A stretch of DNA of 64,000 nucleotides from NCBI GenBank assembly GCA_001784435.1, contig MFQZ01000008.1, positions 23,347 to 87,346 of the forward strand, written 5' to 3'. Each line of letters starts with the position of its first letter. The stretch's first letter is position 1. A program made the translations under genes and the position numbers. Shown in pieces: positions 12,860 through 44,902 of the stretch. The stretch is from Candidatus Magasanikbacteria bacterium RIFOXYC2_FULL_42_28. Lineage in GTDB: Bacteria; Patescibacteriota; Patescibacteriia; Magasanikbacterales; GWA2-37-8. The notes beneath the pieces are model-generated. The model was not told where the DNA came from, searched no databases, and saw only the letters and a list, made by a program, of their open reading frames with translations.

Positions 12860-13663
12860 TCAATCTGGTTGCCAGAAACAATACGGAGAATAATATCCAC
12901 ACATATCTTGCGTATCGGCTTCGGCACAAAGATCAGTTATGGAAAACCTCGTTTGCCCACCAGGTACTCCTTGACCATTTTCCATACTGCATGCTCCATC
13001 ACACACGCCAGCCACATCCTGATCCCTTTGTAAATTACAAAACGACGTACAAAATTGATCCGGCGAAATGTCGCCACCCATACATTTCCCTGGTACTTCG
13101 TCTAATATGTCTCCCCCTCCTTCTTTCCAATCACAATATGTGGTCTCTGCCAAGCATTGCTCTTCATCTTTATCGCCACACTGGGCTTGTTGAACCGCCA
13201 ACTGCTGTTCCGCAGTCATAACATCGGTATATTTTGGTGTGCATCCGACTTCGCCATGTCCTCCACTACCCCCCCCCGCCAACTTCCCAATCACCCAATT
13301 CCCCACGCCCAAAGAGACAAAAATTATCGCCATACCAATTAACGCCGCCTGAATTATATCTTGCGCTTTGGTGATATCTTCTTGGTTGCCGCGCGCGATT
13401 AACCACCGTCCACCACCATAAAGCATTAAGCCAAACAACGCCACCCCAATCATCGCCAAAACAATACCCAAGACCTGGCCAACCAAAGACAATAAATCCG
13501 CCCACTGGCCTACGTTAGGCTCCTTAGCATCAGCAATATACCCGGCTTTTGCTCCGCTATCAGACAATCCGTAATCTGCGGTCGTGGCCTTAGTCGCAAT
13601 AACAAAAAACGAAAACACGCCCAAAGCGACAACAAATAATAAAATAATAATTTTGAATTTCAT
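12860..13663 (-). CDS. T4SS-pilin-like (TrbC/VirB2-like two-TM) surface protein with a Cys-rich C-terminal domain; distant paralog of the 31.9-37.2 kb array
   Basis: signal peptide, core LYGGGRWLIARGNQEDITKAQDIIQAALIG, and a C-terminal domain with about 14 Cys; start taken at MKFKIIILLF (alternative MLNNT at 13687). Confidence 0.55.
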   Translation of the reverse strand: MKFKIIILLFVVALGVFSFFVIATKATTADYGLSDSGAKAGYIADAKEPNVGQWADLLSLVGQVLGIVLAMIGVALFGLMLYGGGRWLIARGNQEDITKAQDIIQAALIGMAIIFVSLGVGNWVIGKLAGGGSGGHGEVGCTPKYTDVMTAEQQLAVQQAQCGDKDEEQCLAETTYCDWKEGGGDILDEVPGKCMGGDISPDQFCTSFCNLQRDQDVAGVCDGACSMENGQGVPGGQTRFSITDLCAEADTQDMCGYYSPYCFWQPD

Positions 13664-13745
13664 AAATTTTATAGTGTTATTTAGCATTGTTATTATACCA
13701 CACCTTGATTTTTTCTTCAAAATCAGGTAAAATCGCTTTAGTTAT

Positions 13746-13990: not shown

Positions 13991-14063
13991 GGTGCCTATA
14001 GTGTAATGGTTAGCACGAGAGATTGTGGATCTCTCAGAATGGGTTCAAATCCCATTAGGCACC
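13991..14063 (+). tRNA. tRNA-His (anticodon GTG) with the extra 5' G(-1)
   Basis: G-1 pairs with C73; acceptor GTGCCTA/TAGGCAC; anticodon loop TTGTGGA; T-loop TTCAAAT. Confidence 0.8.
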
Positions 14064-21850: not shown

Positions 21851-21851
21851 T

Positions 21852-22604: not shown

Positions 22605-22605
22605 T

Positions 22606-23802: not shown

Positions 23803-23806
23803 CAAT

Positions 23807-26800
23807 ATGGAAACACTAAACACAACTAAAGTCGGCCAGCTGGAACGCAAAACGCAAGATCGTATTGTGGCTTTGTTTCGTGATCGGCTTGGCTATGATT
23901 ATCTCGGCAACTTTGAAGAGCGAGAGGAAAACAACAATGTTGAAGAGGTCTATTTGCGCTCTTTTCTTTTGCGTTCCGGACACAGCGAAACTTTGATCAG
24001 CAAAGCCATTGAGAAGTTAAAGAAATGCACCAATCGTCCGCAGATGAGCTTGTATGATCTGAATAAAGAAACTTACAGCTTGCTTCGCTACAGTGCCAAA
24101 GAACGAGAGAAATTGGGAGAGCACAAGCAGGATGTTGAATTCATTGACTGGGAACATCCGGAGAATAATCATTTTGCGATTGCCGAGGAAGTGACGATCA
24201 AAGGCAACCGTACCAAACGGCCGGATATCGTGCTGTATGTAAACGGCATTGCTGTCGGTGTGATTGAACTCAAGCGAAGCATTGTTTCCGTGTCCGAAGG
24301 CATTCGCCAAAACATTGGCAATCAAAAAGAAGAATTTATCAAAACATTTTTCGGTACGATTCAGTTAGTTATGGCTGGTAATGACACTGAAGGTTTGCGT
24401 TATGGCACGACCGAAACTCCCGAACAACATTATTTGTCTTGGAAAGAGACAGGTCTCGGCAGTGAGTCCAGATTGGACCGAGCTATTTTGCAGATTTGCG
24501 ATAAGAAGCGTTTATTGGAAATTATCCACGACTTTATTGTTTTTGATAGCGGTATAAAAAAGACTTGCCGACATAATCAGTATTTTGGCGTTAAGGCCGC
24601 TCAGGATTATGTCAATCGTCACGAGGGTGGAATTGTTTGGCATACGCAAGGTAGTGGCAAGAGTTTGACGATGGTCTGGCTGGCTAAATGGATTCGCGAG
24701 AATATCAACGATGCTCGGGTGCTTTTACTTACCGACCGCACCGAACTTGATCAGCAAATCAAACAGGTTTTTGACGGCGTGAACGAAGAAATATATCGAG
24801 CACCAAGTGCCAGAGATTTATTGGACGAATTAAACAAAAAAGATAAGTGGTTGCTTTGTTCGCTCGTGCATAAATTTGGCCGAGTAAACGGGACCGGCGA
24901 GCTTGATGTTGATGACTATCTTTCAGAGATAAAGAAAAACTTGCCGAAGGACTTTTCTGCCAAAGGCAATTTGTTTGTGTTTGTGGATGAATGTCATCGC
25001 TCTCATACCGGCAAACTGCACGAAGCGATGAAGGAACTTTTGCCAACGGCAACATTCCTTGGCTTTACCGGCACTCCGCTTCTCAAGGTTGATAAATCAA
25101 ACAGCATCGGGGCGTTTGGACCGTATATCCATACTTATAAATATAACGAGGCCGTGGCCGACAAGGTGGTTTTGGATTTACGTTATGAAGCTCGCCGAGT
25201 TGATCAAAGTATCAGCTCCCAAGATAAGATCGACGAATGGTTTGAAGAACGCACCCAAGGGCTTACTGATGTCGCCAAAGCAGAACTCAAGCGACGTTGG
25301 GGTACGATGCAAAGTTTGCTCTCATCTCGATCACGACTGGAGAAAGTGGTTTTTGATATCTTAGATGACTTCTACAAAAAGGATCGCTTAGCCAGTGGTC
25401 GTGGCAATGCCATGCTCGTGGCCAGCAGTATCTATGAAGCTTGTCAGTATTATGAAATTTTCCAGACGATGGGCTTTACCAAGTGTGCCGTGGTGACTTC
25501 TTACGAACCCGGTGCTTTGTCTACCGATACTCGCGAATATGCGGTTTATCAGAAAATGTTAAACGGCAAGAGCACGGAAGATTTTGAGAAAGAAATCAAA
25601 AAGAAATTCATTGAAACTCCGGGTCAAATGCAACTGCTGATTGTGGTGGACAAACTTTTGACTGGTTTTGACGCACCGCCAGCTACTTATCTCTACATTG
25701 ATAAGAATATGCAGGATCACGGCTTGTTCCAAGCGATTTGTCGTGTGAACCGATTGGATGGCGAAGATAAAGAGTACGGCTATATTGTGGACTATCGGGA
25801 CCTATTCAAAAAACTAGAGAAAGCTGTCGGCGATTATACTGCCGGTGCTCTTGAGGGTTTTGATAAGGAAGACGTGCTCGGGCTTTTGAAGGATCGCATG
25901 GATGAAGGCAAAAAGGATTTGGATGAGGCAATGGAAATTGTGAAGGCACTTTGCGAGCCAGTCTCTCCGCCGAAAGATTCAGCCATGTATATCCGCTACT
26001 TCTGCGGTGATGTTGAAAACCCTTACTCCCTCAAAGAAAATGAAATCAAGCGAGTAAAACTTTATAAATCTGTCAGTCATTTGCTTCGAGCTTATGCCGA
26101 CTTGGCCAACGATATGGCTGATGCTGGTTATACCAAAGATCAGGCACAAGCGATTGAGCGAGAAGTTAGACACTACGAACAAGTACGAATGGAAGTTAAA
26201 CTTGCCAGCGGTGATTACATTGATCTGAAGAAATACGAACCGGCAATGCGAGTTTTGATTGACCGTTATATTTCGGCTACCGAAAGCGAGAAGTTGTCGG
26301 CTTTTGACGATATGACTTTGGTGGACTTAATTGTGAAGAAAGGTGAAGACGCTTTGAATGACTTGCCAGACGCTATTAAGCAAAGTCAGGAAGCGGTTGC
26401 CGAAACAATTGAGAACAACGTCCGCAAGCTGATCATTGATGAGATGCCGACTAACCCGAAGTATTATTTGCGAATGTCCGAACTCTTGGATGAGCTGGTC
26501 AAGAAACGCAAACAGGCTGACGTTGAGTATAAGGAATATTTAAAGCAGATTGTGGCTTTGTCCAAGAAAGTTAAAAACCCAATGGACGAGTCTGTTGGTG
26601 CGGAAATAAATACCTCTACTAAGCGAGCGATTTATGACAATCTTGGTCAGGATGTAAATAAGGCCGTGGCGGTGCATGAAGCCGTGATCGCTTCGAGGCA
26701 AGCCGACTGGCGTGGCAATCGTTTGAAAGAACGAGCAATCAAGATTGAAATCAAAAACGCTTTGCCCGAAATCACAGACGAGGAATTGAAAAACCTTTTT

Positions 26801-26830
26801 GAGATTATCAAGAATCAAAATGAGTACTAA
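23807..26830 (+). CDS. hsdR: type I restriction enzyme R subunit (SF2 helicase plus nuclease)
   Basis: Walker A QGSGKS, DECH box (FVDECHRSH), 1007 aa. Confidence 0.9.
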   Translation: METLNTTKVGQLERKTQDRIVALFRDRLGYDYLGNFEEREENNNVEEVYLRSFLLRSGHSETLISKAIEKLKKCTNRPQMSLYDLNKETYSLLRYSAKEREKLGEHKQDVEFIDWEHPENNHFAIAEEVTIKGNRTKRPDIVLYVNGIAVGVIELKRSIVSVSEGIRQNIGNQKEEFIKTFFGTIQLVMAGNDTEGLRYGTTETPEQHYLSWKETGLGSESRLDRAILQICDKKRLLEIIHDFIVFDSGIKKTCRHNQYFGVKAAQDYVNRHEGGIVWHTQGSGKSLTMVWLAKWIRENINDARVLLLTDRTELDQQIKQVFDGVNEEIYRAPSARDLLDELNKKDKWLLCSLVHKFGRVNGTGELDVDDYLSEIKKNLPKDFSAKGNLFVFVDECHRSHTGKLHEAMKELLPTATFLGFTGTPLLKVDKSNSIGAFGPYIHTYKYNEAVADKVVLDLRYEARRVDQSISSQDKIDEWFEERTQGLTDVAKAELKRRWGTMQSLLSSRSRLEKVVFDILDDFYKKDRLASGRGNAMLVASSIYEACQYYEIFQTMGFTKCAVVTSYEPGALSTDTREYAVYQKMLNGKSTEDFEKEIKKKFIETPGQMQLLIVVDKLLTGFDAPPATYLYIDKNMQDHGLFQAICRVNRLDGEDKEYGYIVDYRDLFKKLEKAVGDYTAGALEGFDKEDVLGLLKDRMDEGKKDLDEAMEIVKALCEPVSPPKDSAMYIRYFCGDVENPYSLKENEIKRVKLYKSVSHLLRAYADLANDMADAGYTKDQAQAIEREVRHYEQVRMEVKLASGDYIDLKKYEPAMRVLIDRYISATESEKLSAFDDMTLVDLIVKKGEDALNDLPDAIKQSQEAVAETIENNVRKLIIDEMPTNPKYYLRMSELLDELVKKRKQADVEYKEYLKQIVALSKKVKNPMDESVGAEINTSTKRAIYDNLGQDVNKAVAVHEAVIASRQADWRGNRLKERAIKIEIKNALPEITDEELKNLFEIIKNQNEY

Positions 26831-27545
26831 TTCTTATCTACAACTTGGCAGTGTTGAAGCATTGGTCGTCCGCAAGCCGATCAAGAATTTGCATCTTTCG
26901 GTTTTGCCTCCCAACGGTTGGGTGCGTGTCACTGCACCAGCAAATATGAAAGACGACGCTATCCGTACGCTCTTGGCTTTGAGATTGCCATGGATCAAGA
27001 AACAGCAAGCCAAATTTACTGGCCAAGAAAGGCAAACCAAGCGTGATTATTCCTCCGGTGAAAGCCATTACTTTTTTGGTAAACGCTATCGCCTTGAAGT
27101 GGTTTATAAAGACGAGGCACCTGTTGTTACCTTGAAAGGAAAAAATAAGATTATTTTACAGGTTCGACCGAAAAGTCCGGCGATCAAACGCCGAGAAGTG
27201 ATGATGGATTGGTATCGCAAGGAGTTGCACACGGTCGTTGATGAATTGATTGCCAAGTGGCAAAAGAAAATGGGCGTAGAGGTTAAATTTTGGGGTATTA
27301 AGCAGATGAAGACTCGTTGGGGTACCTGCAATCACAAGCGAGCTCGAGTCTTGATAAACCTAGAGCTAGCCAAAAAGCCGATCGCTTGCGTGGAGTATGT
27401 CGTAGTCCACGAGCTTTTGCATTTGATTGAGAAAAAACACAGCGACAAATTTGTCGCCCTAATGGCAAAATACATTCCGAAATGGAAAGGCATAAAAGAG
27501 GAACTGAACAGTTTTATTTTGTCGTACGAGGAGTGGAAGTATTAG
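26820..27545 (+). CDS. YgjP/DUF45-type (M48-like) zinc metallopeptidase, a type commonly linked to hsdR
   Basis: HExxH motif (VVVHELLHLIE); start overlaps the hsdR stop. Confidence 0.6.
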   Translation: MSTNSYLQLGSVEALVVRKPIKNLHLSVLPPNGWVRVTAPANMKDDAIRTLLALRLPWIKKQQAKFTGQERQTKRDYSSGESHYFFGKRYRLEVVYKDEAPVVTLKGKNKIILQVRPKSPAIKRREVMMDWYRKELHTVVDELIAKWQKKMGVEVKFWGIKQMKTRWGTCNHKRARVLINLELAKKPIACVEYVVVHELLHLIEKKHSDKFVALMAKYIPKWKGIKEELNSFILSYEEWKY

Positions 27546-27616
27546 TCTTGACTAGTAAAAATAGGCTGTAATTTGCTATCGAAAAATTTTCGATAAACTG
27601 ATATAATTATTGTAGT

Positions 27617-28687
27617 ATGAAATCACAATCCTCAAAAATTAAAGTCGTTGATTTATTTTGTGGCATTGGTGGACTGACTCACGGTCTTATCAAGGAGGGT
27701 TTAGATGTGGTGGCAGGAATTGATAACGATTCAAGTTGTAAATTTGGTTATGAATACAACAACAAGGCTCAATTTATTGATAGCGACATTCTTAAGGTAA
27801 CACCTGATCAAATAAATAAATTATTTGGTACAAAAAAGGGCACAATACGTGTTCTTGCTGGTTGTGCCCCTTGCCAGCCATTTTCAAGATTGAATCTAAA
27901 AAAAGTCACCGAAAAACAACTTGAGCCACTGGGTAAATTTGCTCAACTTATTGCGACTGTTCAGCCAGACATTGTCTCAATGGAAAATGTTAGTGGTTTA
28001 GCTGACACAAATAAATACCCCGTCTTTGCTAAATTTATAAAGACTCTGGAGGATAACGGATATAAATATAAATATGAAGTGGTAGATGTCTCAGAATTTG
28101 GCGTACCTCAAAAACGAAAACGATTAGTTTTATTGGCCTCAAAGTTTGGTGAAATTGAATTGATAAAAAGAACTCACAAAGACAAGCGAGTTACTGTTCG
28201 TGATGTTATAAAACACCTTGAACCAATCAAAGATGGTCAAACAAGTAAAAAAGACCCTCTTCATAAGGCAAGAAAACTTGATCCAATAAATCTTGATCGA
28301 ATCAAGGCGACTCCACATAATGGCGGGAATTCAGAAAGTTGGAGTGAAGATTTAATGCTTGATTGCCACAAAAAAGCTTCAGGAAAGACTTATCGAAGTA
28401 CCGTTTATGGCCGAATGAGATGGGACGAACCAGCACCGACTATGACAACTCAATGCATAGGTTTAGGGAATGGTCGTTTTGGTCACCCAACACAAAATCG
28501 TGCTATAAGTTTAAGGGAGGCCGCAATATTTCAAACATTCCCTGAAAATTATAAATTTACCGAGTCCGAAGACTCTATGGTGGTTACTAAAGTGGCAAAG
28601 TTTATTGGAAACGCAGTACCAGTAAGGCTGGGATCAGTCATTGGCAAGAGTATCAAGAATCACCTCAAATATTATGAAAAACAATAA
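27617..28687 (+). CDS. DNA (cytosine-5) methyltransferase
   Basis: motif I DLFCGIGG, motif IV GCAPCQPFS, motif VI ENV (SMENV). Confidence 0.85.
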   Translation: MKSQSSKIKVVDLFCGIGGLTHGLIKEGLDVVAGIDNDSSCKFGYEYNNKAQFIDSDILKVTPDQINKLFGTKKGTIRVLAGCAPCQPFSRLNLKKVTEKQLEPLGKFAQLIATVQPDIVSMENVSGLADTNKYPVFAKFIKTLEDNGYKYKYEVVDVSEFGVPQKRKRLVLLASKFGEIELIKRTHKDKRVTVRDVIKHLEPIKDGQTSKKDPLHKARKLDPINLDRIKATPHNGGNSESWSEDLMLDCHKKASGKTYRSTVYGRMRWDEPAPTMTTQCIGLGNGRFGHPTQNRAISLREAAIFQTFPENYKFTESEDSMVVTKVAKFIGNAVPVRLGSVIGKSIKNHLKYYEKQ

Positions 28688-30347
28688 TGATAATTTCTCT
28701 TTTGAGATTTCACTGAGCGTTTTGAATCACTTAGGAAGAAATCTGTACAGAAGTTTTGCTACAGTTCTCGGAGAAGCAATCTCTAATGCATGGGATGCTG
28801 ACGCAAAAAATGTCTCAATCTATATCAACAAGAAAGGCAACAGCTTTTTTATCAAAGATGACGGAGTTGGTATGACAAGTGATGATTTTCAAAATAAGTT
28901 TTTGAAAATTGGATACTCAAAGAGAAAAGATGGCGGTTCTGCTTCTCCCAAGGGCAGACCTTATATAGGCAGGAAAGGTATCGGTAAATTAGCTTTGCTG
29001 TCTTGTGCGGACAAAATAACCGTTATATCAAAAACTAAATCCAGCAAGTACATTGGTGGTGTCATTGATAACTCCGGTTTAGACAAAGCAATAACAGAAG
29101 ATCTTACTCCCAAGGAGTATTCTCTTGGATCATGGACAGAAAGCACTTTTGCCACCCATACAAAAGATCATAAACATGGCACAATAATTTATTTTGAAGG
29201 TATCAAGGACGGTATACAAAACAGCTTAGAGTTTTTGAAAAAGATTGTTGCTTTGTATTTTCGTTTTTCACTTTTAGATAAAACATTCAATATCTTTATT
29301 GATGGCGAAAAAATCACACATGAATCCCTTAATGATCTTGCTGAAAAAACAGAGTTTTTATGGAAAATAAATGAACACAAGGATCCTTACGTTCAAAGTC
29401 TTGAAAAGAGATTTACTCCAGAAAAAAACGAGCAAAGAGACATCGTCCTTAAAGGTACTAAAGTGAAGGGGTTTATTGCGTCAGTTGAACGACCAAGAGA
29501 TCTTAAAATAATGACGACAGAGGAAAGAATCGGAATCGACCTTTTTGTAAATGGAAGATTGCGAGAAAGAGATATCCTCAAACATATACCAACATCTCGA
29601 GTGGCCGAGAATTATTTGTATGGACAGATTCACTTCAATGAGCTTGATAGTGGCGATGATATATTTACTAGTAGCCGAGAGGGTGTGGTTGCTGATGATC
29701 CAAAATATAAAAAGTTTCTAGATACTCTGCGAAAAAGTGTGATATTAAAAATTGTTGAGGATTGGGACAAATGGAGAATAGCCCACAGGAAGGATGGCGA
29801 TTCAGAAAACGAGAGAATGACCCCTCGAGATAGAAAATCAATGGAGTTATTTAATACCGTTTCCAAAGAATATACAGTTACAGGAAAATCAAAACATAAA
29901 AAGAAAATTGACACATGGGTTAATGATCTTGCTGATGACGCTCAATACAATTTTGGCTCTTATGCGGAATGTTTTGTATCAGAAAATTTAATCAGAAATT
30001 ATATTGGCGAAAAGAAAATAACCTTGTCAAAGGAAGCAAAAACAGAAATTGCGAAATGGAAAAAAGTAGAAACGGAGTCTAAAAATAAAGGCAATGTTAG
30101 TATTGGTATCCGCAAAAATAATAGTGATTTGAGCTATCTATCTATGAATGATCTCGCATACCTTGTAGATAAAGCAAAAGATCCAACTAAAGAGGCTTGT
30201 CTTGCGAGAGATGCAAACGAGTATAAGCCAATTCGAGACTCGCTTGCTCACACAGCACTTCTAACTGATGCGGCGAAAAAGAAGTTAACCTCGGTTTATG
30301 AAAATATCAAAGGCAGACTCATTACATTACTGTCTGGGAAGGCCTAA
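28674..30347 (+). CDS. GHKL-superfamily (HATPase_c, MORC/MutL-like) ATPase with a large C-terminal domain of unknown function; 14-nt overlap with the upstream m5C methyltransferase gene
   Basis: N-box EAISNAWDA, G1 box DDGVGM, G2-like GRKGIGKLAL. Confidence 0.6.
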   Translation: MKNNNDNFSFEISLSVLNHLGRNLYRSFATVLGEAISNAWDADAKNVSIYINKKGNSFFIKDDGVGMTSDDFQNKFLKIGYSKRKDGGSASPKGRPYIGRKGIGKLALLSCADKITVISKTKSSKYIGGVIDNSGLDKAITEDLTPKEYSLGSWTESTFATHTKDHKHGTIIYFEGIKDGIQNSLEFLKKIVALYFRFSLLDKTFNIFIDGEKITHESLNDLAEKTEFLWKINEHKDPYVQSLEKRFTPEKNEQRDIVLKGTKVKGFIASVERPRDLKIMTTEERIGIDLFVNGRLRERDILKHIPTSRVAENYLYGQIHFNELDSGDDIFTSSREGVVADDPKYKKFLDTLRKSVILKIVEDWDKWRIAHRKDGDSENERMTPRDRKSMELFNTVSKEYTVTGKSKHKKKIDTWVNDLADDAQYNFGSYAECFVSENLIRNYIGEKKITLSKEAKTEIAKWKKVETESKNKGNVSIGIRKNNSDLSYLSMNDLAYLVDKAKDPTKEACLARDANEYKPIRDSLAHTALLTDAAKKKLTSVYENIKGRLITLLSGKA

Positions 30348-31922: not shown

Positions 31923-32423
31923 TTATCTCCTGAGCAAATTCACTTCACCAACCGGCACTCCGGAAGCATCGCTGTCATAAATCGGCGCTTTTTCCAAATC
32001 ATAGCGACGGATCTGACCATCCCAATAATCGGTATAATCACCTTTGGCCAATTTAATCGCGAATAGCGTGATGGAATAAGCGCTTAAAATTATCGCCAGT
32101 CCAATTACCGCTTGAGTTAAAAGCGATTTGGCTTTAGTTACCTGCTCATCGTTACCCCCGGCCGTCATCCACAAAAATCCGGCGTAAAGAGTAAACACAA
32201 AAAACAACATTCCCAAAAATTCCAAAGCCACGCGGATGATATTGGCGACAATTTGGCGGGGGTCTTTGACATCGGCCGGAGTATAGCCAGCGCCAGTGCC
32301 GGCCGCGCCCAATTGGCCCACGATATCCGGTCCGTCTAAAGCGCTCGCTTGGCGAGCGGAAAACAATCCTACACCCAACATAACAACCAACGCCGAGATA
32401 ATTAAAAATTTTGTAAATTTCAT
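31923..32423 (-). CDS. T4SS-pilin-like (TrbC/VirB2-like) two-TM protein, paralog 1
   Basis: signal peptide; core YAGFLWMTAGGNDEQVTKAKSLLTQAVIGLAIIL; variable N-domain. Confidence 0.6.
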   Translation of the reverse strand: MKFTKFLIISALVVMLGVGLFSARQASALDGPDIVGQLGAAGTGAGYTPADVKDPRQIVANIIRVALEFLGMLFFVFTLYAGFLWMTAGGNDEQVTKAKSLLTQAVIGLAIILSAYSITLFAIKLAKGDYTDYWDGQIRRYDLEKAPIYDSDASGVPVGEVNLLRR

Positions 32424-32429
32424 AAATTA

Positions 32430-33023
32430 TTAATCTACCGGCATGCAACAAGTGCCGGGTATTTCTTCTTGAGTTGCAGGATCAACTTGGCAACTGACAC
32501 CGCCAACCAAAGCATCAAACCAATCTACTATATCTCCAAAATCAGAATTGCTTTCCGGCTGATAGGCCTCTCCGCCTAATGCCGTGCAATTACTTTGGTG
32601 AGTTGTGCCACCGGCTGTTGTCCATCCCGCTGATGTGCCGGTAACACTCGTGAAACGCAAAGTGACAAAAAACGTAATACTGAAAGCCGCCAAGGCAATA
32701 ATCATACCAATAACCGATGCTTTTAAAATATTCACGGCTTTGGTAATCTGCTCATCGTTACCCCCGGCCGTCATCCACAAAAACCCGGCGTAAACAGCCA
32801 AAGCAAAAAATATCATGCCCACAAGCGACAATGTAACGCTAATAATATACCCAATCCCGCTGGATAGTTGATTGGCTTCGTTGCCGATTTCGTAACCGGA
32901 ACCTTTGGCCACCCCCTCCAATGTGTTTTGCCCAAAATCAACTGCGTTGGCATGATTCAATGCTGGCGCGCCTAAAAGCAAAATGCCGACAAAGATACTC
33001 ACCAAAATAAATTTAAGTCTCAT
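32430..33023 (-). CDS. T4SS-pilin-like protein, paralog 2, with a Cys-containing C-terminal tail
   Basis: core YAGFLWMTAGGNDEQITKAVNIL; shares a 47-nt near-identical DNA tract with paralog 1. Confidence 0.6.
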   Translation of the reverse strand: MRLKFILVSIFVGILLLGAPALNHANAVDFGQNTLEGVAKGSGYEIGNEANQLSSGIGYIISVTLSLVGMIFFALAVYAGFLWMTAGGNDEQITKAVNILKASVIGMIIALAAFSITFFVTLRFTSVTGTSAGWTTAGGTTHQSNCTALGGEAYQPESNSDFGDIVDWFDALVGGVSCQVDPATQEEIPGTCCMPVD

Positions 33024-33042
33024 AAATTTTATTATCTATTTG

Positions 33043-33540
33043 TTACTCTGGGCAACTTTCACCAGCACGCCAAACCCCATCGCCATTTGCACAATCAGCT
33101 TTGCTGATACCGCCCACAACTGTATCTATACATTCTTCCACACCATCGGCATCTGTTAACACGCACTTACCCCCCCCGCCACCCCCACCCACCAACCTAT
33201 TCGTCACAAACGCCGTAATCGCATATGCCAAAAATACAATTGTGATGCCGATTAAGGCCGCTTCCAAGGTGTCTTTGGCTTTAGTAACTTTTTCGTCATT
33301 GCCTTGAGCGGTCATCCAACGAATGCCGGCGTAAACCGTTAAGATGAAAAATACCGTGCCAATTAAAGCCAAAATCGTGTTGATTACTAAACCGGTGGTG
33401 CTTTCAAGATTAGGTGTCAAGCCGGTTTTTCCGCCGATTTGACTCAATTTTGTGCCAGCGTCATTAATTGTCAAAGCACTTACACTTAAAGGCACAAGTA
33501 AAACTGTGGCTAAAATGATAGTAAAAAAAATCTTACGCAT
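33043..33540 (-). CDS. T4SS-pilin-like protein, paralog 3, with poly-Gly linker and Cys-rich C-terminus
   Basis: core YAGIRWMTAQGNDEKVTKAKDTL. Confidence 0.6.
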   Translation of the reverse strand: MRKIFFTIILATVLLVPLSVSALTINDAGTKLSQIGGKTGLTPNLESTTGLVINTILALIGTVFFILTVYAGIRWMTAQGNDEKVTKAKDTLEAALIGITIVFLAYAITAFVTNRLVGGGGGGGKCVLTDADGVEECIDTVVGGISKADCANGDGVWRAGESCPE

Positions 33541-33552
33541 ATTTTAAAAAAA

Positions 33553-33933
33553 TTATTTCAAATTCAACGCGTTAAACACAAAGCGAGCAATGGCATAAGC
33601 GGCCAAAACTATTACCAAACCAATACTGGATGTTTCCAGCAATTCTTTCGCCTTGGTAACGCGCTCGCTATTGCCCAGGGCCGTCATCCACACGCCACCG
33701 GCGTATAAAGTCAAAACGAAAAATAACGCGCCGATAAGCGACAGGGCGATACCGACGATAGCGCCAATAAGGTCGATGACATTGGTGGCGTCGGCTACTT
33801 CTTGCGGTAATTTTGCTTCCTTGGCCGCTGTGCCTAAACCATATCCACCTGTGTAGGCCTCGGCCAAAACAAAAGTCGGGGCGAGCAGTAAAACACCGGC
33901 TAAAATTGTTAATGATATTTTTTTAAAAGACAT
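33553..33933 (-). CDS. T4SS-pilin-like protein, paralog 4 (minimal form)
   Basis: core YAGGVWMTALGNSERVTKAKELL. Confidence 0.6.
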   Translation of the reverse strand: MSFKKISLTILAGVLLLAPTFVLAEAYTGGYGLGTAAKEAKLPQEVADATNVIDLIGAIVGIALSLIGALFFVLTLYAGGVWMTALGNSERVTKAKELLETSSIGLVIVLAAYAIARFVFNALNLK

Positions 33934-33944
33934 AGTTTGATTAA

Positions 33945-34060
33945 TATCAAATTTCCAATGTCAAATGTCAAATCAATTTCAAAATCCAAATTTCAAAAAA
34001 CGATTTGACATTTAAATTTTGGATTTGATTGGAAATTGGAAATTTAGATTTTGACATTTC
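33945..34060. repeat. about 115-bp near-perfect AT-rich palindromic element of the GGAAATT family
   Basis: CAAATTTCCAATGTCAAATGTCAAATCAATTTCAAAATCCAAATTTC / GATTTGACATTTAAATTTTGGATTTGATTGGAAATTGGAAATTTAG; near-identical copy at 34588-34702. Confidence 0.7.
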
Positions 34061-34157
34061 ACTCAACCTATTTCCCGACAGGGGGTTGCGAGTTCGCCCA
34101 CAAACGCAACTGTTTAAAATTGCGAGCGAGCGCGCGAACCCCCTGCCGAAAAATATA

Positions 34158-34547
34158 CTACCCGGTAAACCCTGTTTTATCAACTAATTCTCCAACCACA
34201 AACTGCGCAATCGCGTAAGCGGACAAAATAATTGCGAGACCGATAATACCCGAGAATATCCATTTCTTGGCTTCGCCTACTTTTTCATCATTACCGCCGG
34301 CCGTCATCCAAGTAAAGCCGCCGATCAAAATAATGACGATGGCGACGATACCCAAAAAGCCGAGTACTACACTAATAATGTTACCAATAGTAGCGCGCAA
34401 ATCACCATCTCCCAAACCACTTGTTTTAGCAAAGCCCAGGCCCAAGTTCTCTTCTTGATCTGGCGTACTGCTTATAGCCAACACTGGCGTGGCAAACAAA
34501 GCCAAAGCCATCACGCCCAAAATTACTCCACTTAAAATCTTTTTCAT
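34158..34547 (-). CDS. T4SS-pilin-like protein, paralog 5
   Basis: core GGFTWMTAGGNDEKVGEAKKWI; strong SD (GGGGGTGAG) before the ATG. Confidence 0.6.
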   Translation of the reverse strand: MKKILSGVILGVMALALFATPVLAISSTPDQEENLGLGFAKTSGLGDGDLRATIGNIISVVLGFLGIVAIVIILIGGFTWMTAGGNDEKVGEAKKWIFSGIIGLAIILSAYAIAQFVVGELVDKTGFTG

Positions 34548-34587
34548 ATTCTCACCCCCTTTCGCAATTTTAATATCATATTATTAA

Positions 34588-34702
34588 TTTCAAATTTCCA
34601 ATGTCAAATGTCAAATCAATGTCAAAATCCAAATTTCAAAACGCGATTTGACATTTAAATTTTGGATTTGATTGGAAATTGGAAATTTGGATTTTGACAT
34701 TG
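34588..34702. repeat. palindromic GGAAATT-family element, copy nearly identical to 33945-34060
   Basis: seen directly. Confidence 0.7.
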
Positions 34703-34743
34703 CTAATATTATACCACATTTATTTTTTCGCCACAACTACAAA

Positions 34744-35556
34744 CTACTTTGGAAAATCACCCGTACCCAAATACGTCAAAACGCCATTTAAAAACAAATA
34801 ACTAAAAAACACGATGAACGCGCCCAAAGCCGCAAACGCCATCGTTTTCCCGCCGGCCTTAATTTTTTCCGGATTGCCGGCGGCCATGAGCCAGGCCTGC
34901 GCACCCCAAATAAACATCAAAAGCACGACCGCGCCGATTACGCCCAAAATGCCTTTAATTATTATACCGATAATAGTAGGGACGTCGGTAGTGCCACTGG
35001 CCAAGGGGTTGTCAAGACAAACCGAACCGGTTGGACAAGGTTCTTTTGTTTTTGAAGTATCAGGCGCTGACGCGGCGTCGGCGATTGGCGTTTCGGCAGG
35101 GGCGACAGTTGAACCAGGCACAACCGCTGTTTCCTCTAACTCTGCAGTGGCCAAATCAGGTGTCCAAATAGTAGTGACTGGGGCAGTTAAAGTTAGTTTG
35201 TCAGCCACAGTAACTTCACCCGAAATTGGCACTGTCACTACCGGCGGTATATTAAATTTCGCCATTAGTTCTTCCACTGTGCTAGATTCGTTTAATAACT
35301 CACAATCTGCTTGGAGATTTATTTCTTCCACATCAACATTGTTCCAAAAACAAGTTGCTTTTTCTGTAAGACCACCGGCATTATATGTTCCATGATATTG
35401 ACTACATGCAGATTCCAACGCGACACCTAATCCATAATCTATTTCCAATTCACCTGCAACTTCACAAACCCCCTCTGCCAATACCGGCGCCGCCGAAAAA
35501 AACAAAACAAAAAATGATAGTGGCACCAACAAAAAAGATAAGATAATTTTACGCAT
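34744..35556 (-). CDS. T4SS-pilin-like protein, paralog 6, with a long Cys-containing N-terminal ectodomain
   Basis: C-terminal core GAQAWLMAAGNPEKIKAGGKTM plus TM pair. Confidence 0.55.
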   Translation of the reverse strand: MRKIILSFLLVPLSFFVLFFSAAPVLAEGVCEVAGELEIDYGLGVALESACSQYHGTYNAGGLTEKATCFWNNVDVEEINLQADCELLNESSTVEELMAKFNIPPVVTVPISGEVTVADKLTLTAPVTTIWTPDLATAELEETAVVPGSTVAPAETPIADAASAPDTSKTKEPCPTGSVCLDNPLASGTTDVPTIIGIIIKGILGVIGAVVLLMFIWGAQAWLMAAGNPEKIKAGGKTMAFAALGAFIVFFSYLFLNGVLTYLGTGDFPK

Positions 35557-35560
35557 AAAT

Positions 35561-36529
35561 TTAAAACAAACTAAACAGCGAACGCACCAACCAATAAGCC
35601 GCCATTTGCACTATAATGGATAGCGTCGCCCAGAGCAAAATGTGTTTGGCTTTAGTTATTTGTTCGGCATTGCCTTGGGCGGTCATCCACAAAAAGCCGG
35701 CCCAGACATAAAACAAAAGTAAGAGCGAGCCAATTATGCCCATTAAAAAATAAATTACTTTACCGATAAATTCATTGACGCGACCGGTGGCCGTTGATTC
35801 TGTGAGCCATTTAAAAGGATTTAATTTTAATTTGGCGCTGGCTTGTAAACTTTTAAGATCGCCGGTTTTTAGGGTGGAGGTGATCGGATCGTGTTCGTAA
35901 GAAGCGCAGGTACCATCGGGACCCAAATCATTAACAATTGCGTCTTTTTCACAACCTATTACACAACTATTATCTTGTAATTTTTTAGGAGTTTCCACGC
36001 AACTGACTGATCCATCATCAACACTGCGCACACAACAACAATTGGGCTGTTCACCCTTAAAAAATTGGCATAGAATTCGGGGAGAAGCAAAATCATTAAT
36101 ATCTGTGGATGCCCCTCCCAATCTACCGACTCTATTAATTGGAGTAGTGATTTTAGTGCAAACGTCATTCAACATCGTCAAATTAAATTCCCAATCGGAT
36201 AAAAGACCATATAAACCGTTAACCTGTTTTAAATCTCCACTATATAATTTACTATTCTCGGTAAAAACTCCATAATAGATTGGCGCCACCCCAAACTTGT
36301 CCAAAATATTACCACCAAAACCACCGCCAGTAGAAAAATCAATAGAACAAACACAAGCACTTTTGTGTTGGCATTTATCGGAAAACAATTTGTCAAGTGC
36401 TGGCTCAGTTTTGGTAAAATTATTATGCAAAGTCCCGCCTGGCGTAATTTCGCCTGACGCAAAATCCGGCCCGATTGAAATTCCCAATAAAATGACAAAA
36501 ATAAAAACAGTAATTTTTTTCATAAACAT
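35561..36529 (-). CDS. T4SS-pilin-like protein, paralog 7, with a large Cys-rich N-terminal ectodomain (about 17 Cys)
   Basis: C-terminal core WAGFLWMTAQGNAEQITKAKHIL. Confidence 0.55.
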   Translation of the reverse strand: MFMKKITVFIFVILLGISIGPDFASGEITPGGTLHNNFTKTEPALDKLFSDKCQHKSACVCSIDFSTGGGFGGNILDKFGVAPIYYGVFTENSKLYSGDLKQVNGLYGLLSDWEFNLTMLNDVCTKITTPINRVGRLGGASTDINDFASPRILCQFFKGEQPNCCCVRSVDDGSVSCVETPKKLQDNSCVIGCEKDAIVNDLGPDGTCASYEHDPITSTLKTGDLKSLQASAKLKLNPFKWLTESTATGRVNEFIGKVIYFLMGIIGSLLLLFYVWAGFLWMTAQGNAEQITKAKHILLWATLSIIVQMAAYWLVRSLFSLF

Positions 36530-37213
36530 CTACTTTAACTTTAAACCAACACCCCCGAGCGACCCCACCCCTACCGCTTCGCTTAAAAATCCGACTAACA
36601 AATACGCGGAAAAAACCACGATTATGCCAATAATAGCCGCGAGCATGGCGTCGGTGCCTTTTTTAACGCGTTCGGGATTGCCTTCGGATATGATAAATAA
36701 AATTCCGCCGTAAATAAACATCAGGAGTGCGAGCGCGCCAATAATGCCAAATAGGTAATTGGCGATATTGATGCCGAGCAAAACAAAAATGCCAATATCG
36801 CGACAAGGCGAATCTTTGGGAAACTCATTGGCTAAAATACAAGCCGGTAAAAACGCGCTGGTATTGGCCTCAGTGCTGGAAACATCTTTGGTTAATTTGG
36901 TGCGGTGCGCGTCCCAGGTAATAAGAGCGTCTTTACAGCGTTGGTAGCCATCGTCAATACCACCGTCAAAAAATTTACAGCTGTCGAAGTCGTTAATATA
37001 CTCATAAGTTCCGGCCGTACTTTTACAGGCATCTTCATTGCTTGTAGTATTACATCCGCTATTTTTAGCATCTTTTAATTCTTCCGGAGTAACCCCGGTG
37101 TCTAAAGGTGAAGCGCAAAAACAATAACCACCCGCTTGGGCCGGAGTTGAAGTTAAAACCAAACCGGCGAAAGACAGGAGGGCGACTGATAAAATTATAA
37201 ATTTTTTGGACAT
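36530..37213 (-). CDS. T4SS-pilin-like protein, paralog 8, with a Cys-rich N-terminal ectodomain
   Basis: C-terminal core YGGILFIISEGNPERVKKGTDAM; start abuts the stop of paralog 7. Confidence 0.5.
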   Translation of the reverse strand: MSKKFIILSVALLSFAGLVLTSTPAQAGGYCFCASPLDTGVTPEELKDAKNSGCNTTSNEDACKSTAGTYEYINDFDSCKFFDGGIDDGYQRCKDALITWDAHRTKLTKDVSSTEANTSAFLPACILANEFPKDSPCRDIGIFVLLGINIANYLFGIIGALALLMFIYGGILFIISEGNPERVKKGTDAMLAAIIGIIVVFSAYLLVGFLSEAVGVGSLGGVGLKLK

Positions 37214-39680: not shown

Positions 39681-39790
39681 ATTTCAAAATCCAAATTTCC
39701 AATTTCCAATCAAATCCAAAATCCTAATATCAAATTTGACATTTTGGCTTTGACATTGATTTGACATTGGAAATTGGAAATTTGACATTT
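39681..39790. repeat. GGAAATT-family palindromic element immediately upstream of the PilX-like gene
   Basis: seen directly. Confidence 0.6.
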
Positions 39791-41167
39791 TCACTCTATC
39801 TCTTCCCAACTCACCAAAAAATATTCCGACCCAACCGGAAAACCGGGGGGTGGATTTAGAGTTAAATTGGCATCGTAAGTGGCATAGGTATTTTTGTAAC
39901 CCGACACCACCGACCCGCCACCGGACACATAACTCCAAGTCCACAAATCATTGGAAATTATCGAACCATAAATAGTTAAACTTTCCCGTTTATTGCCCAT
40001 ATAAAAATATCGCTTGGCCGCGCCGGTTTGGGCGAGCATGGCCGCGTCCACTTCCAAGTAATTAGGCGCGATGTAGGGCAACAAAATATTTTTCTCAGCA
40101 ATCAATCCCAAAACATTAGTGCCGTCTTTCGCTAAATAAGTTAAATTATTGTTAATAACAATTGATTTGTCATCCGCCGTGCCGACCGTCGCCCGACCGT
40201 TGACAATCCCGTCCACCCATACCATATCTTCTACATATATATAGCCATTGGTCGGCATATCATATACCACTGCCGTGCCAAAAGTGGCGGCGTCAATGCA
40301 AAACCAGCCAAAGCGCGCGTGGCCATTGCCCCAATAATCTTGGCCGTAATAACAATCCGTGGTATTAACTTTGTAAATATTAATTTTGCCATCAGCGCGA
40401 AATTCCAGCCGATATCCTTGCTTACCGGACGATGTTAAATAAATACCATTAATTTCCGCCTCGCGTTTAATTTCGGCCAGTTTGGCGGTAACGCGCGAAA
40501 AATCTTGCGCCGGCACCGGAAATTCCCACAAACTCTCGTCGCCGTCGCCCCACACTCCGGGTTTTTCTTGATTACCGCAACCGTGATGTTGTTTACATAT
40601 ATAAGTAGGCACCGCCGAGGTAATGGGTGCGTTGCCAATGCCGTCAAAGCGCGCCCCGCCGTTAGCATGCAGTTTGCCGTTGGCGGTTTCGCTGTCGCCA
40701 ATCCAAATATCCACATTGGTAAGATACGCAAAATCCGTTAAAGCCGGAAACCCGACGCGCGCTTTTAAAGTGCGTTTGCTATCGGGCTGTAAATCCAACC
40801 AGCCGGTGGATTCAATCGTAACGACCGTGGAACCGCTTTGGGGTGGAATAATATTTAAAGAATAATGGCCGATGACATTGCCATCTTTATCTTCGTATTC
40901 GTGGATGTATGGCCCAACCGCGCCCGTGCCGTCTTGATAATCAGTTTTATCATGCGCCAAATGCCAGCGATAATAATTCACGCCCGCCTCGGCAATTTGA
41001 AAAGCCATTTCGCGATTATGTTTATGAACCGAAGCCCGATTTTCCAAAACCGCGTAACCGGTAACACCGACGACAATTAAACTAAAACTAATGGCGCCGA
41101 AGATGAGGGCAAAGAGTAATGCTGTTCCCCTTTTGTCAAATTTTAATTTTTTATAAATATTCAGCAT
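39791..41167 (-). CDS. PilX-like type IV pilus minor-pilin/assembly protein (large secreted protein)
   Basis: N-terminus KRGTALLFALIFGAISFSLIVVG resembles the PilX_N domain; 458 aa. Confidence 0.4.
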   Translation of the reverse strand: MLNIYKKLKFDKRGTALLFALIFGAISFSLIVVGVTGYAVLENRASVHKHNREMAFQIAEAGVNYYRWHLAHDKTDYQDGTGAVGPYIHEYEDKDGNVIGHYSLNIIPPQSGSTVVTIESTGWLDLQPDSKRTLKARVGFPALTDFAYLTNVDIWIGDSETANGKLHANGGARFDGIGNAPITSAVPTYICKQHHGCGNQEKPGVWGDGDESLWEFPVPAQDFSRVTAKLAEIKREAEINGIYLTSSGKQGYRLEFRADGKINIYKVNTTDCYYGQDYWGNGHARFGWFCIDAATFGTAVVYDMPTNGYIYVEDMVWVDGIVNGRATVGTADDKSIVINNNLTYLAKDGTNVLGLIAEKNILLPYIAPNYLEVDAAMLAQTGAAKRYFYMGNKRESLTIYGSIISNDLWTWSYVSGGGSVVSGYKNTYATYDANLTLNPPPGFPVGSEYFLVSWEEIE

Positions 41168-41289
41168 GCTAATAACTATTAATAATTCACTAAGTCCTAA
41201 TTCGCTAATTAACTAATCAAATACCAAAGTATTCAAGAATTGAAAATTTTATTAGCGAATTAGTTAATTAGTGAATTAGTTAATTTTCG

Positions 41290-41922: not shown

Positions 41923-41945
41923 TGGAAATTTGGATTTTGAAATTA
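41887..41945. repeat. half-copy of a GGAAATT-family element, overlapping the 5' end of 41290-41922 and reaching the stop of 41943-43745
   Basis: GATTTGACATTGGAAATTTGGATTTTGAAATT. Confidence 0.5.
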
Positions 41946-44890: not shown

Positions 44891-44902
44891 ATCTATAATT
44901 TT

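What the first reader, a model, noticed from the sequence alone, without database searches (positions are those of the whole stretch)
32142..32794. Near-identical 47-nt DNA tracts inside paralogs 1 and 2 suggest gene conversion
32142-32188 and 32748-32794 are identical over 36 nt (CTGCTCATCGTTACCCCCGGCCGTCATCCACAAAAA), plus 10 more nt with one mismatch. Both encode the WMTAGGNDEQ core. The corresponding segments of the other paralogs differ at many synonymous positions.

This points to recent recombination between neighbouring copies, consistent with a cassette-shuffling system.
Basis: seen in the sequence. Interest (0 to 1): 0.55.

Follow-up and report, generated by a model that had tools for sequence, protein, structure and literature searches.

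The report
Short gene conversion between neighbouring pilin genes
Two neighbouring, anciently duplicated pilin-like genes of an uncultured groundwater bacterium share a 36-47 base stretch that was most likely copied from one gene into the other, which is ordinary gene conversion and not a programmed cassette-shuffling system.

Summary
Positions 32142-32177 and 32748-32783 are identical over 36 nt, and over 47 nt with one mismatch. Both stretches encode YAGFLWMTAGGNDEQ on the minus strand.

They lie in genes p1 (31923-32423) and p2 (32430-33023). These are the last two of eight tandem VirB2-like "T4SS_pilin" (PF18895) genes. The source is a Candidatus Magasanikbacteria (Patescibacteria) genome.

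Codon constraint does not explain the identity:
- The p1-p2 tract matches at 46/48 nt, against at most 38/48 for any other pair. The flanks are only 55% identical.
- 12 of 13 synonymous codons match in the tract, several of them rare. In the flanks 9 of 21 match.

The array order is conserved in related genomes, so p1 and p2 are old paralogs. Their flanks group with orthologs, but the tract groups by genome. In the closest relatives the orthologous pair is not identical (81%).

Adjacent pairs in other genomes independently show the same thing at the same motif, each with its own nucleotide sequence.

The best explanation is short-tract gene conversion between adjacent paralogs, probably from p1 into p2.

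The "cassette-shuffling" reading is not supported. All copies are complete genes with signal peptides, and the exchange lies in the conserved core, not in the variable parts.

This is a real but ordinary process in an already described kind of gene array.

The parts
32142..32188 (-). Tract copy in p1. It is 36 nt exact (32142-32177), then one mismatch (32178), then 10 identical nt. It encodes YAGFLWMTAGGNDEQ.
32748..32794 (-). Tract copy in p2. It is identical to the p1 copy except at 32784 (GGG in p2, GGA in p1, both Gly).
31923..32423 (-). p1: VirB2-like pilin paralog of 166 aa, with a signal peptide and two hydrophobic helices. It is the probable donor of the tract.
   Evidence: (PF18895, 31.1 bits)
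32430..33023 (-). p2: VirB2-like pilin paralog of 197 aa with a Cys-containing C-terminal extension. It is the probable acceptor of the tract.
   Evidence: PF18895, 26.1 bits, just under the 26.6 cut-off; matches the core HMM
33043..33540 (-). p3: pilin paralog of 165 aa.
33553..33933 (-). p4: pilin paralog of 126 aa.
34158..34547 (-). p5: pilin paralog of 129 aa. It also gives a weak TrbC/VirB2 PF04956 match.
34744..35556 (-). p6: pilin paralog of 270 aa with a long N-terminal ectodomain.
35561..36529 (-). p7: pilin paralog of 322 aa with a Cys-rich N-terminal ectodomain.
36530..37213 (-). p8: pilin paralog of 227 aa, the first gene of the array.
12860..13720 (-). p9: the remote ninth paralog. 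Its likely true start is the internal ATG giving MKFKIIILLF.... It matches the core HMM but has no Pfam hit at E<0.001.

Best explanation
A short non-reciprocal homologous exchange (ectopic gene conversion) copied about 36-47 bp of the conserved loop-motif region between p1 and p2. These are two adjacent, same-strand, anciently duplicated VirB2-like pilin genes whose tracts start 606 bp apart. The eight-gene tandem array belongs to a Candidatus Magasanikbacteria (Patescibacteria) chromosome. What is shown: the tract is identical at synonymous sites while the rest of the two genes is at background synonymous similarity. The duplication predates the split from related genomes, and the tract nevertheless groups by genome. 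What is inferred: the mechanism is RecA-type heteroduplex formation, or template switching between close direct repeats. It is seeded in the one segment that purifying selection on the protein motif keeps similar enough, and it is cut short by the diverged flanks. Each conversion restores identity there and makes the next one easier, which would explain why the same spot is homogenised independently in many lineages. Direction is probably p1 to p2. Window p2 carries ACG GCC GGG GGT, as do window p1 and the p1 ortholog of the closest relative. The p2 ortholog of that relative has ACC GCC GCG GGC. This looks like a by-product of tandem paralogy, not a dedicated variation system.
For: (1) Exact repeat: two copies of the 36-mer and none in shuffles. 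(2) Tract against flanks: p1-p2 is 46/48 nt in the tract and 82/150 (55%) in the rest of the core. That flank value equals p1-p4, p2-p4 and p3-p4. Synonymous codons match at 12/13 in the tract and 9/21 in the flanks. (3) The shared codons include rare ones: TAC 0.24, GGG 0.12, ACG 0.20, AAC 0.30, GAG 0.26, CAG 0.30. (4) Null models: family-wise P of a run of at least 36 nt is 0/3000 to about 0.008, and the within-pair stratified permutation gives p=0.004. (5) No sequence-specific constraint on the tract: between genomes, synonymous identity is 0.377 in the tract and 0.354 in the flanks. (6) Old paralogs: the array order p8..p1 is conserved in L003, L012, L007, L005, L031, L023, L029 and L163. 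In flank amino acids, window p1 matches its orthologs at 0.67-0.70 and window p2 at 0.46; window p2 matches its orthologs at 0.60-0.71. (7) Incongruence: against L003, tract sites split 5 by-genome to 0 by-ortholog, and sites outside split 2 to 11 (Fisher p=0.0025). (8) Unconverted controls: orthologous p1/p2 pairs have tract identity 0.81 (L003), 0.85 (L012), 0.79 (L007), 0.67 (L005) and 0.81 (L163). (9) Window-specific synonymous states TAC, AAC and GAG are present in both copies. (10) Recurrence: among pairs with under 80% core identity, exact runs of at least 30 nt occur in 15 adjacent pairs, 1 pair two genes apart and 0 distant pairs. These fall in 15 of 77 loci, and most runs start at core nt 49-72. 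The tract sequence differs between genomes. L055/L021 gives 8:0 inside against 0:29 outside (p=2.6e-8), and L031/L023 gives 5:0 against 1:16 (p=2e-4). Adjacent pairs reach p<0.01 in 13/542 cases, non-adjacent pairs in 5/1967.
Against: The tract is very short, so every single-locus test has limited power. Bonferroni correction of the conservative pairwise p (0.004 x 36) gives 0.14. Triplet tests with orthologs give p between 0.003 and 0.46 depending on the reference. The quartet with the closest relative L163 is weak inside the tract (2:0 against 5:17, about 0.08), because L163's p1 ortholog already shares much of the tract sequence. Before conversion the two copies would have shared only about 80% identity with exact runs of 11-14 nt. 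That is below the usual minimal homology for RecA-mediated exchange, so either conversion has been continuous since the duplication or another mechanism acts. No closely related strain is available to catch the event directly. The recombination machinery of this genome was not examined.
Confidence: 0.75

Rival explanations
1. Chance combined with constraint. The motif is the most conserved part of the protein, and codon preference plus residual ancestral identity happen to give a long identical run in one of 36 pairs.
For: The tract coincides with the longest stretch of identical amino acids, where long runs are easiest to obtain. After Bonferroni correction the conservative permutation test is not significant. 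TAC GCC GG is shared by p1-p4, so part of the 47 nt may be ancestral.
Against: Several shared codons are rare in this genome. Simulations conditioned on the amino-acid sequences give at most 0.008 family-wise. Other pairs with the same WMTAGGNDE peptide, such as p1-p5, match at only 5/10 synonymous codons. The orthologous pairs in L003, L012, L007, L005 and L163 are not identical. The same pattern recurs almost only in adjacent pairs.
Confidence: 0.08
2. Selection on the nucleotide sequence within each genome. Both mRNAs might need to pair with the same small RNA or antisense transcript, or share a translational pause or secondary-structure signal, so the two copies co-evolve with a genome-specific partner.
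For: Within-genome identity with between-genome difference is also what a co-evolving trans-acting partner would produce. The tract is more GC-rich (0.55) than the array (0.43).
Against: There is no excess synonymous conservation of the tract between genomes (0.377 against 0.354). Only some genomes and only adjacent pairs show the pattern, while the other paralogs with the same motif do not. No Rfam family or convincing structure was found in the region. This reading needs an extra unknown component.
Confidence: 0.05
3. A programmed cassette-shuffling or antigenic-variation system, as with Neisseria pilE/pilS, in which the conserved motif is the anchor for frequent segment exchange among paralogs.
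For: There are multiple tandem pilin paralogs with variable ecto-domains. There is evidence of conversion at a conserved anchor. A 119-nt repeat flanks p5. Others have speculated that pilin arrays aid adaptation to hosts (PMC12102498).
Against: All copies are complete genes with start codon, signal peptide and stop, and there is no single expression site. Order and orthology of all eight positions are conserved across distant genomes. The variable regions show ortholog-type, not mosaic, relationships: 3' flank sites split 1:14 and 0:9 in favour of orthology. Two independent assemblies are identical over 16.5 kb, so no variation is visible.
Confidence: 0.05
4. A recent tandem duplication of one gene followed by very fast divergence, or replacement, of everything except the motif.
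For: The pair is adjacent. The 5' half of the core (TM1) is somewhat more similar (about 70%) than the 3' half (about 50%).
Against: Both genes have separate orthologs at the same array positions in at least eight other genomes. Synonymous identity in the flanks is at background (9/21). Fast protein evolution would not erase synonymous identity.
Confidence: 0.04

Closest known systems
VirB2-like pilin arrays of Patescibacteria (Pfam PF18895 T4SS_pilin; described in PMC12102498; essential pilin series of Ca. Southlakia epibionticum, PMC10633639)
   Same: It has tandem arrays of 2-11 small pilin-like genes with a signal peptide and two hydrophobic helices. Amino-acid identity between copies is low. 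It occurs in CPR/Patescibacteria, as here (8 genes plus 1, with core identity about 20-56%).
   Different: That work reports the arrays and their variability but not gene conversion between copies. Here no VirB4 or other T4SS gene lies among the window ORFs I scanned, so the array is not in a recognisable T4SS cluster within the window.
Ectopic gene conversion / concerted evolution of bacterial paralogs (for example duplicated tuf genes and rRNA operons; my own knowledge of the literature)
   Same: The exchange is non-reciprocal and homogenises a segment of two paralogs in one genome. The tract groups by genome while the rest groups by ortholog.
   Different: The tract here is unusually short (36-47 bp). 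It sits in otherwise highly diverged genes (55% nt identity), whereas the classic cases homogenise whole, nearly identical genes.
Neisseria pilE/pilS pilin antigenic variation, and similar systems such as Anaplasma msp2 and Borrelia vlsE
   Same: A pilin or surface-protein gene family in which gene conversion uses conserved segments as homology anchors.
   Different: Those systems have one expression site plus silent, truncated, promoterless cassettes. Conversion there is frequent, targets the variable regions and gives population-level mosaics. None of these features is seen here.
Tandem virB2 paralogs of Anaplasma phagocytophilum and Bartonella (PMC3556328)
   Same: There are multiple tandem VirB2 paralogs with hypervariable regions flanking a conserved core.
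   Different: The bacteria are different (Rickettsiales, diderm) and the arrays lie next to virB4. Copy number varies between strains. Conversion within the conserved core was not the reported feature.

Membership tests
T4SS_pilin (PF18895) / VirB2-like pilin | Match to the Pfam model at or above the gathering score | tested here: met
   p1 and p3-p8 score 27.5-49.3 bits against a cut-off of 26.6. p2 scores 26.1, marginally below. p9 has no Pfam hit but matches an HMM of the family core. The database's precomputed annotation gives PF18895 for p2.
T4SS_pilin (PF18895) / VirB2-like pilin | N-terminal signal peptide followed by two hydrophobic helices joined by a short conserved loop | tested here: met
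   All eight array proteins start with a K/R-rich N-terminus, a hydrophobic stretch and an AxA-type site. The core alignment shows two hydrophobic blocks around WMTAGGNDE. This was judged by eye; no predictor was run.
T4SS_pilin (PF18895) / VirB2-like pilin | Genomic association with VirB4 or other T4SS genes | tested here: not met
   The 20 ORFs submitted to Pfam include a GT2 glycosyltransferase, a solute-binding protein, an NTP-transferase, type IV pilus-like pseudopilins, FtsK and PNPase, but no VirB4, VirB6 or coupling protein. L001's precomputed annotations add restriction-modification genes. Not every ORF of the window was scanned, and the rest of the genome was not available.
T4SS_pilin (PF18895) / VirB2-like pilin | Assembly into a pilus or function in secretion | not testable with these tools
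   No experimental data exist for this organism.
Ectopic gene conversion between paralogs | A segment whose identity at synonymous sites exceeds that of the flanks | tested here: met
   12/13 in the tract against 9/21 in the flanks; 46/48 nt against 55%; permutation p=0.004; simulations at most 0.008.
Ectopic gene conversion between paralogs | Phylogenetic incongruence: the tract groups paralogs by genome, the flanks group them by ortholog | tested here: met
   Window/L003 gives 5:0 inside against 2:11 outside, p=0.0025. Orthologous pairs in L003, L012, L007, L005 and L163 are unconverted. The signal is weaker with L163 (2:0 against 5:17).
Ectopic gene conversion between paralogs | No nucleotide-level conservation of the tract across genomes that could explain the identity by selection | tested here: met
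   Between-genome synonymous identity is 0.377 in the tract and 0.354 in the flanks. Tract sequences differ between genomes.
Ectopic gene conversion between paralogs | Direct observation of donor and converted alleles in close strains, and dependence on recombination genes | not testable with these tools
   No relative closer than about 56-61% protein identity exists in any collection.
Programmed cassette / antigenic-variation system (pilE/pilS type) | One expression locus plus silent, truncated cassettes | tested here: not met
   All copies are full-length ORFs with ATG, signal peptide and stop, spaced 0-19 nt apart or separated by promoter-like repeats.
Programmed cassette / antigenic-variation system (pilE/pilS type) | Exchange affects the variable regions and produces mosaics | tested here: not met
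   The tract is the conserved motif. The 3' flank follows orthology, 1:14 with L163 and 0:9 with L003. Array order is conserved.
Programmed cassette / antigenic-variation system (pilE/pilS type) | Within-population sequence variation at the locus | tested here: inconclusive
   Only one other assembly could be compared, and it is identical over 16.5 kb. No read-level data were available.
Diversity-generating retroelement (template/variable repeat pair) | A non-coding template repeat next to a reverse transcriptase, with mismatches confined to adenines | not tested
   Both copies are coding and the flanks differ at all bases. There is only one mismatch (A/G), and no reverse transcriptase was found among the 20 ORFs submitted to Pfam. 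The window was not scanned exhaustively.

The most novel reading that the evidence does not exclude
The conserved WMTAGGNDE-coding segment may act as a standing recombination anchor in Patescibacteria pilin arrays. Repeated conversions and crossovers there would occasionally swap the upstream module (ectodomain plus first helix) against the downstream module (second helix plus C-terminal extension) between neighbouring paralogs. That would amount to a slow, unprogrammed form of cassette shuffling that diversifies the surface filament for new hosts. Two observations hint at this. First, the same spot is homogenised independently in about one array in five. Second, the 5' flank shows a mixed by-genome/by-ortholog signal (4:3) while the 3' flank does not (1:14).
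Probability: 0.1. Interest if true: 0.55.

Novelty: new member of a known kind. Interest (0 to 1): 0.3.

Why it matters
The result shows that the VirB2-like pilin arrays of Patescibacteria are not entirely independent gene copies, even though they have been described as highly diverged. Neighbours exchange short patches at the one motif that stays similar, and this has happened repeatedly in different lineages. Anyone building trees or dating duplications of these pilins should mask that segment, because it carries a different history from the rest of the gene. The result also removes the more exciting reading: nothing here indicates a dedicated antigenic-variation machine. Biologically it is an ordinary consequence of tandem paralogy. 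Its value is mainly as a clean small example and a caution for evolutionary analysis of these arrays.

Tried and rejected
(1) Close strains, to date the event. Exact-protein look-ups returned only an identical contig. The genome scan, the metagenome scan and the 5.8-billion-protein search found nothing closer than 52-61% identity. Dating is therefore impossible with public data.

(2) Triplet (3SEQ-like) tests with orthologs as the vertical parent were underpowered, because synonymous sites are saturated. P ranged from 0.003 to 0.46. I rely more on quartet site patterns.

(3) Codon-bias explanation: rejected, because several shared codons are rare.

(4) Conserved RNA or DNA element: rejected. 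Rfam gave only sub-threshold hairpin noise, and there is no excess synonymous conservation between genomes.

(5) Assembly artefact: unlikely. The identity (36-47 nt) is far shorter than the final assembly k-mer implied by the contig name (k141), and an independent ENA contig is identical.

(6) G-quadruplex initiator, as in Neisseria. The only G4-like run in the array (33170-33190) is the coding sequence of a Gly7 linker in p3. I do not consider it meaningful.

(7) Plus-strand ORFs overlapping the tracts (for example 32605-32793, and similar ones in p3-p5) are antisense reading frames of the conserved motif (...SSLPPAVIH...). They are not genes.

(8) p5 as a third-party donor: rejected, because it shares only a 14-nt run with p1/p2.

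(9) A literature search for gene conversion in VirB2 arrays found nothing relevant to Patescibacteria.

Full report
**1. The observation**

The 36-mer CTGCTCATCGTTACCCCCGGCCGTCATCCACAAAAA occurs exactly twice in the window, at 32142-32177 and 32748-32783. No other site matches with up to three mismatches, and no match appears in 100 shuffles. Reading on, one base differs (T at 32178, C at 32784) and the next ten are again identical.

Both tracts lie on the minus strand inside complete ORFs, p1 (31923-32423, 166 aa) and p2 (32430-33023, 197 aa). They encode (L/V)YAGFLWMTAGGNDEQ.

**2. What the genes are**

- Eight consecutive minus-strand genes, p1 to p8 (31923-37213), share a 66-residue core: a hydrophobic helix, the loop W-M-T-A-x-G-N-x-E, and a second hydrophobic helix. 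A ninth copy, p9, lies at 12860-13720.
- Seven of the eight array genes pass the Pfam gathering score for PF18895 (T4SS_pilin). p2 misses it by 0.5 bit. p5 also touches TrbC/VirB2.
- All eight have an ATG, a typical signal peptide and a stop codon. They are separated by 0-19 nt, except for two spacers of about 200 nt.
- The protein search identifies the source as a Candidatus Magasanikbacteria MAG (RIFOXYC2_FULL_42), a member of the Patescibacteria.
- The ORFs scanned with Pfam are ordinary chromosomal genes: a GT2 glycosyltransferase, a solute-binding protein, an NTP-transferase, type IV pilus-like pseudopilins, FtsK and PNPase. L001's precomputed annotations add a restriction-modification island. 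No VirB4 or other T4SS component was among the ORFs scanned.
- Arrays of 2-11 VirB2-like pilin genes with low mutual identity are already described for Patescibacteria (PMC12102498). A pilin series is essential in Ca. Southlakia (PMC10633639).

**3. Is the identity more than codon constraint?**

I aligned the 66 core codons of all nine paralogs.

| Measure | p1-p2 | Comparison |
|---|---|---|
| Identity over the 48-nt tract | 46/48 | best of the other 35 pairs: 38/48 |
| Identity over the remaining 150 nt of the core | 55% | p1-p4 56%, p2-p4 57%, p3-p4 57% |
| Identical codons where amino acids match, tract | 12/13 | p1-p5, same WMTAGGNDE peptide: 5/10 |
| Identical codons where amino acids match, flanks | 9/21 | |

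- The shared codons include several that are rare in this genome: GGG 0.12, ACG 0.20, TAC 0.24, GAG 0.26, AAC 0.30, CAG 0.30.
- With amino-acid sequences fixed and codons redrawn from genome or family usage, a run of at least 36 nt in any of the 36 pairs never arose in 3000 trials. It arose in 0.13% and 0.7-0.9% of trials when substantial residual ancestral codon sharing was built in.
- A deliberately conservative test permutes the identical/different labels of synonymous codons within the p1-p2 pair, stratified by degeneracy. It gives p = 0.004. After Bonferroni correction for 36 pairs that is 0.14, so this test alone is not decisive.

**4. Comparative evidence**

A scan of one genome per species with p1 returned 80 loci, nearly all Magasanikbacteria or other Patescibacteria. 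An HMM of the core found 644 paralogs in them, typically 6-16 per locus. Four results follow.

- **The array is old.** By flank amino-acid identity, the order p8-p7-p6-p5-p4-p3-p2-p1 recurs in L003, L012, L007, L005, L031, L023 and L029. It recurs in L163 as well, with one extra p3-like copy. L163 is a Logan contig and the closest relative.
- **Window p1 and p2 each sit closer to their own orthologs than to each other.** Window p1 is closer to its orthologs (0.67 in L003, 0.70 in L163) than to window p2 (0.46). Window p2 matches its orthologs at 0.60-0.71. The p1/p2 duplication therefore predates these lineage splits.
- **In those relatives the orthologous p1/p2 pair is not identical in the tract.** Tract identity is 0.81 (L003), 0.85 (L012), 0.79 (L007), 0.67 (L005) and 0.81 (L163), with many synonymous differences.
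- **Site patterns in four-sequence comparisons switch at the tract.** Against L003, tract sites split 5 by-genome to 0 by-ortholog, and sites outside split 2 to 11 (Fisher p = 0.0025). Three synonymous states (TAC, AAC, GAG) are specific to the window lineage yet present in both copies.
- **There is no sequence-specific constraint on the tract.** Between genomes, synonymous identity is 0.377 in the tract and 0.354 in the flanks.

**5. The phenomenon recurs**

- Among 2509 within-locus pairs, exact runs of at least 30 nt in pairs with under 80% core identity occur in 15 adjacent pairs, one pair two genes apart and no distant pair. They fall in 15 of 77 loci, and 12 of 16 runs start at core nt 49-72, the same motif.
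- Adjacent pairs reach p < 0.01 in the permutation test in 13 of 542 cases, against 5 of 1967 for non-adjacent pairs.
- The tract sequences differ between genomes at many synonymous sites but are identical within each genome's pair.
- Quartets of related genomes give very clean switches. L055/L021 gives 8:0 inside the tract against 0:29 outside (p = 2.6e-8). L031/L023 gives 5:0 against 1:16 (p = 2e-4). The control pair L003/L012, which has no identical tract, gives 0:1 against 1:21.
- L035 and L077 are about 90% identical. The Leu codon in the tract is CTA in both copies of one genome and CTC in both copies of the other.

This is concerted evolution confined to the motif.

**6. Mechanism**

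*Shown:* a short segment of two adjacent, anciently diverged paralogs has a different and younger history than the rest of the genes.

*Inferred:* non-reciprocal homologous exchange. It would proceed through a RecA-type heteroduplex, or by template switching between direct repeats whose tracts start 606 bp apart. It starts where purifying selection on the protein motif keeps the DNA most alike, and it is cut short by the diverged flanks. Each event restores identity and so favours the next, which explains the recurrent hot spot.

*Direction:* probably p1 to p2. Window p2 carries ACG GCC GGG GGT, as do window p1 and L163's p1 ortholog. L163's p2 ortholog has ACC GCC GCG GGC, and the L003 and L012 p2 orthologs have Ser at that position.

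*Possible older events:* the 5' flank (first helix) shows a mixed signal, 4 by-genome to 3 by-ortholog with L163, while the 3' flank does not (1:14). Older conversions may therefore have reached further upstream. The counts are small and this is only suggestive.

*A difficulty:* unconverted pairs share only about 80% identity with exact runs of 11-14 nt, which is short for initiating RecA-mediated exchange. Either conversion has been more or less continuous since the duplication in some lineages and lost in others, or a mechanism tolerant of short homology acts.

**7. The cassette-shuffling reading**

Systems such as Neisseria pilE/pilS have one expressed gene, silent truncated cassettes, frequent conversion of variable regions, and mosaics within the population. 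Here the picture differs on each count:

- Every copy is a complete gene.
- The positions are stable orthologs across distant genomes.
- The exchanged piece is the conserved core.
- The variable 3' parts follow orthology.
- An independent assembly is identical over 16.5 kb.

The reading is not supported, although read-level population data were not available.

**8. Verdict**

The gene-conversion interpretation is supported with about 0.75 confidence, and the cassette-system interpretation is not. Both the array type and the process are known. What is added is a documented, recurrent micro-conversion hot spot in Patescibacteria pilin arrays. That is of modest interest, and it is a practical warning for phylogenies of these genes.

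Noticed in passing
window 33940-34058 and 34583-34701; a third, diverged copy around 39690-39790: A 119-nt AT-rich repeat, 96% identical between the first two copies, folds into a hairpin of about 100 nt (-32 kcal/mol, z = -3.6). It sits in the two long spacers of the array, directly upstream of p4 and p5, so p5 is flanked by direct repeats. It carries the best sigma-70-like match of the region (TTGACA-N16-AATAAT, 11/12). The third copy is upstream of the NTP-transferase gene. It may be a mobile promoter-bearing palindromic element. Rfam gives only sub-threshold miRNA-hairpin noise.
   Followed up: partly
L055 9480-10290, L021 9411-10290, L031 3854-4760, L039 9880-10940, L057 8901-9915, L071 10217-11360 (locus coordinates): Adjacent pilin paralogs in other Patescibacteria genomes independently share exact tracts of 35-63 nt at the same motif. 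The nucleotide sequences are genome-specific, and the quartet site patterns switch very cleanly (for example 8:0 inside against 0:29 outside).
   Followed up: yes
window 12860-13720 and 14055-15734: The ninth, remote pilin paralog p9 has a long Cys-rich C-terminal extension. It lies about 330 nt from a large serine recombinase gene (Resolvase, Recombinase and Zn_ribbon_recom domains), followed by a small sigma-70 region 4 / HTH protein. p9 may sit on or beside an integrated element.
   Followed up: no
window 32430-32800 (p2 C-terminus), 33043-33200 (p3), 34744-37213 (p6-p8 N-termini): The paralogs differ mainly by Cys-rich extensions outside the two-helix core. These are C-terminal in p2, p3 and p9, and N-terminal (100-250 aa) in p6, p7 and p8. 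They are presumably disulfide-bonded surface domains, and relatives carry different ones at the same array positions.
   Followed up: no
window 33170-33190: A C-rich run on the plus strand (G-rich on the coding strand) matches a G-quadruplex pattern. It is the coding sequence of a Gly7 linker in p3, and p9 has a similar GGGSGG linker at 13286-13310.
   Followed up: partly
window 19421-30347: A restriction-modification and defence island lies next to the array. It includes a type I restriction subunit (HsdR, 23807-26830), a YgjP/SprT-like metalloprotease, a DNA cytosine methylase (27617-28687) and an HATPase_c_3 protein (28641-30347). A Fic/DOC protein lies at 18513-19415.
   Followed up: no
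window 39791-43745: Three genes have type IV pilin-like N-termini (N_methyl, PilX_N), one of them with a CarboxypepD_reg domain. This is a type IV pilus (T4P) minor-pilin cluster a few kb from the VirB2-like array, so two different filament systems are encoded side by side.
   Followed up: no
window 32605-32793, 33101-33307, 33653-33856, 34267-34458 (plus strand): Open reading frames run antisense to p2-p5, and all contain ...SSLPPAVIH/Q.... They are the mirror frame of the conserved WMTAGGNDE motif and not independent genes.
   Followed up: yes
window 44224-44613: A small HEPN-domain protein sits next to short unannotated ORFs (44639-45244). It may be a toxin-antitoxin or defence pair.
   Followed up: no
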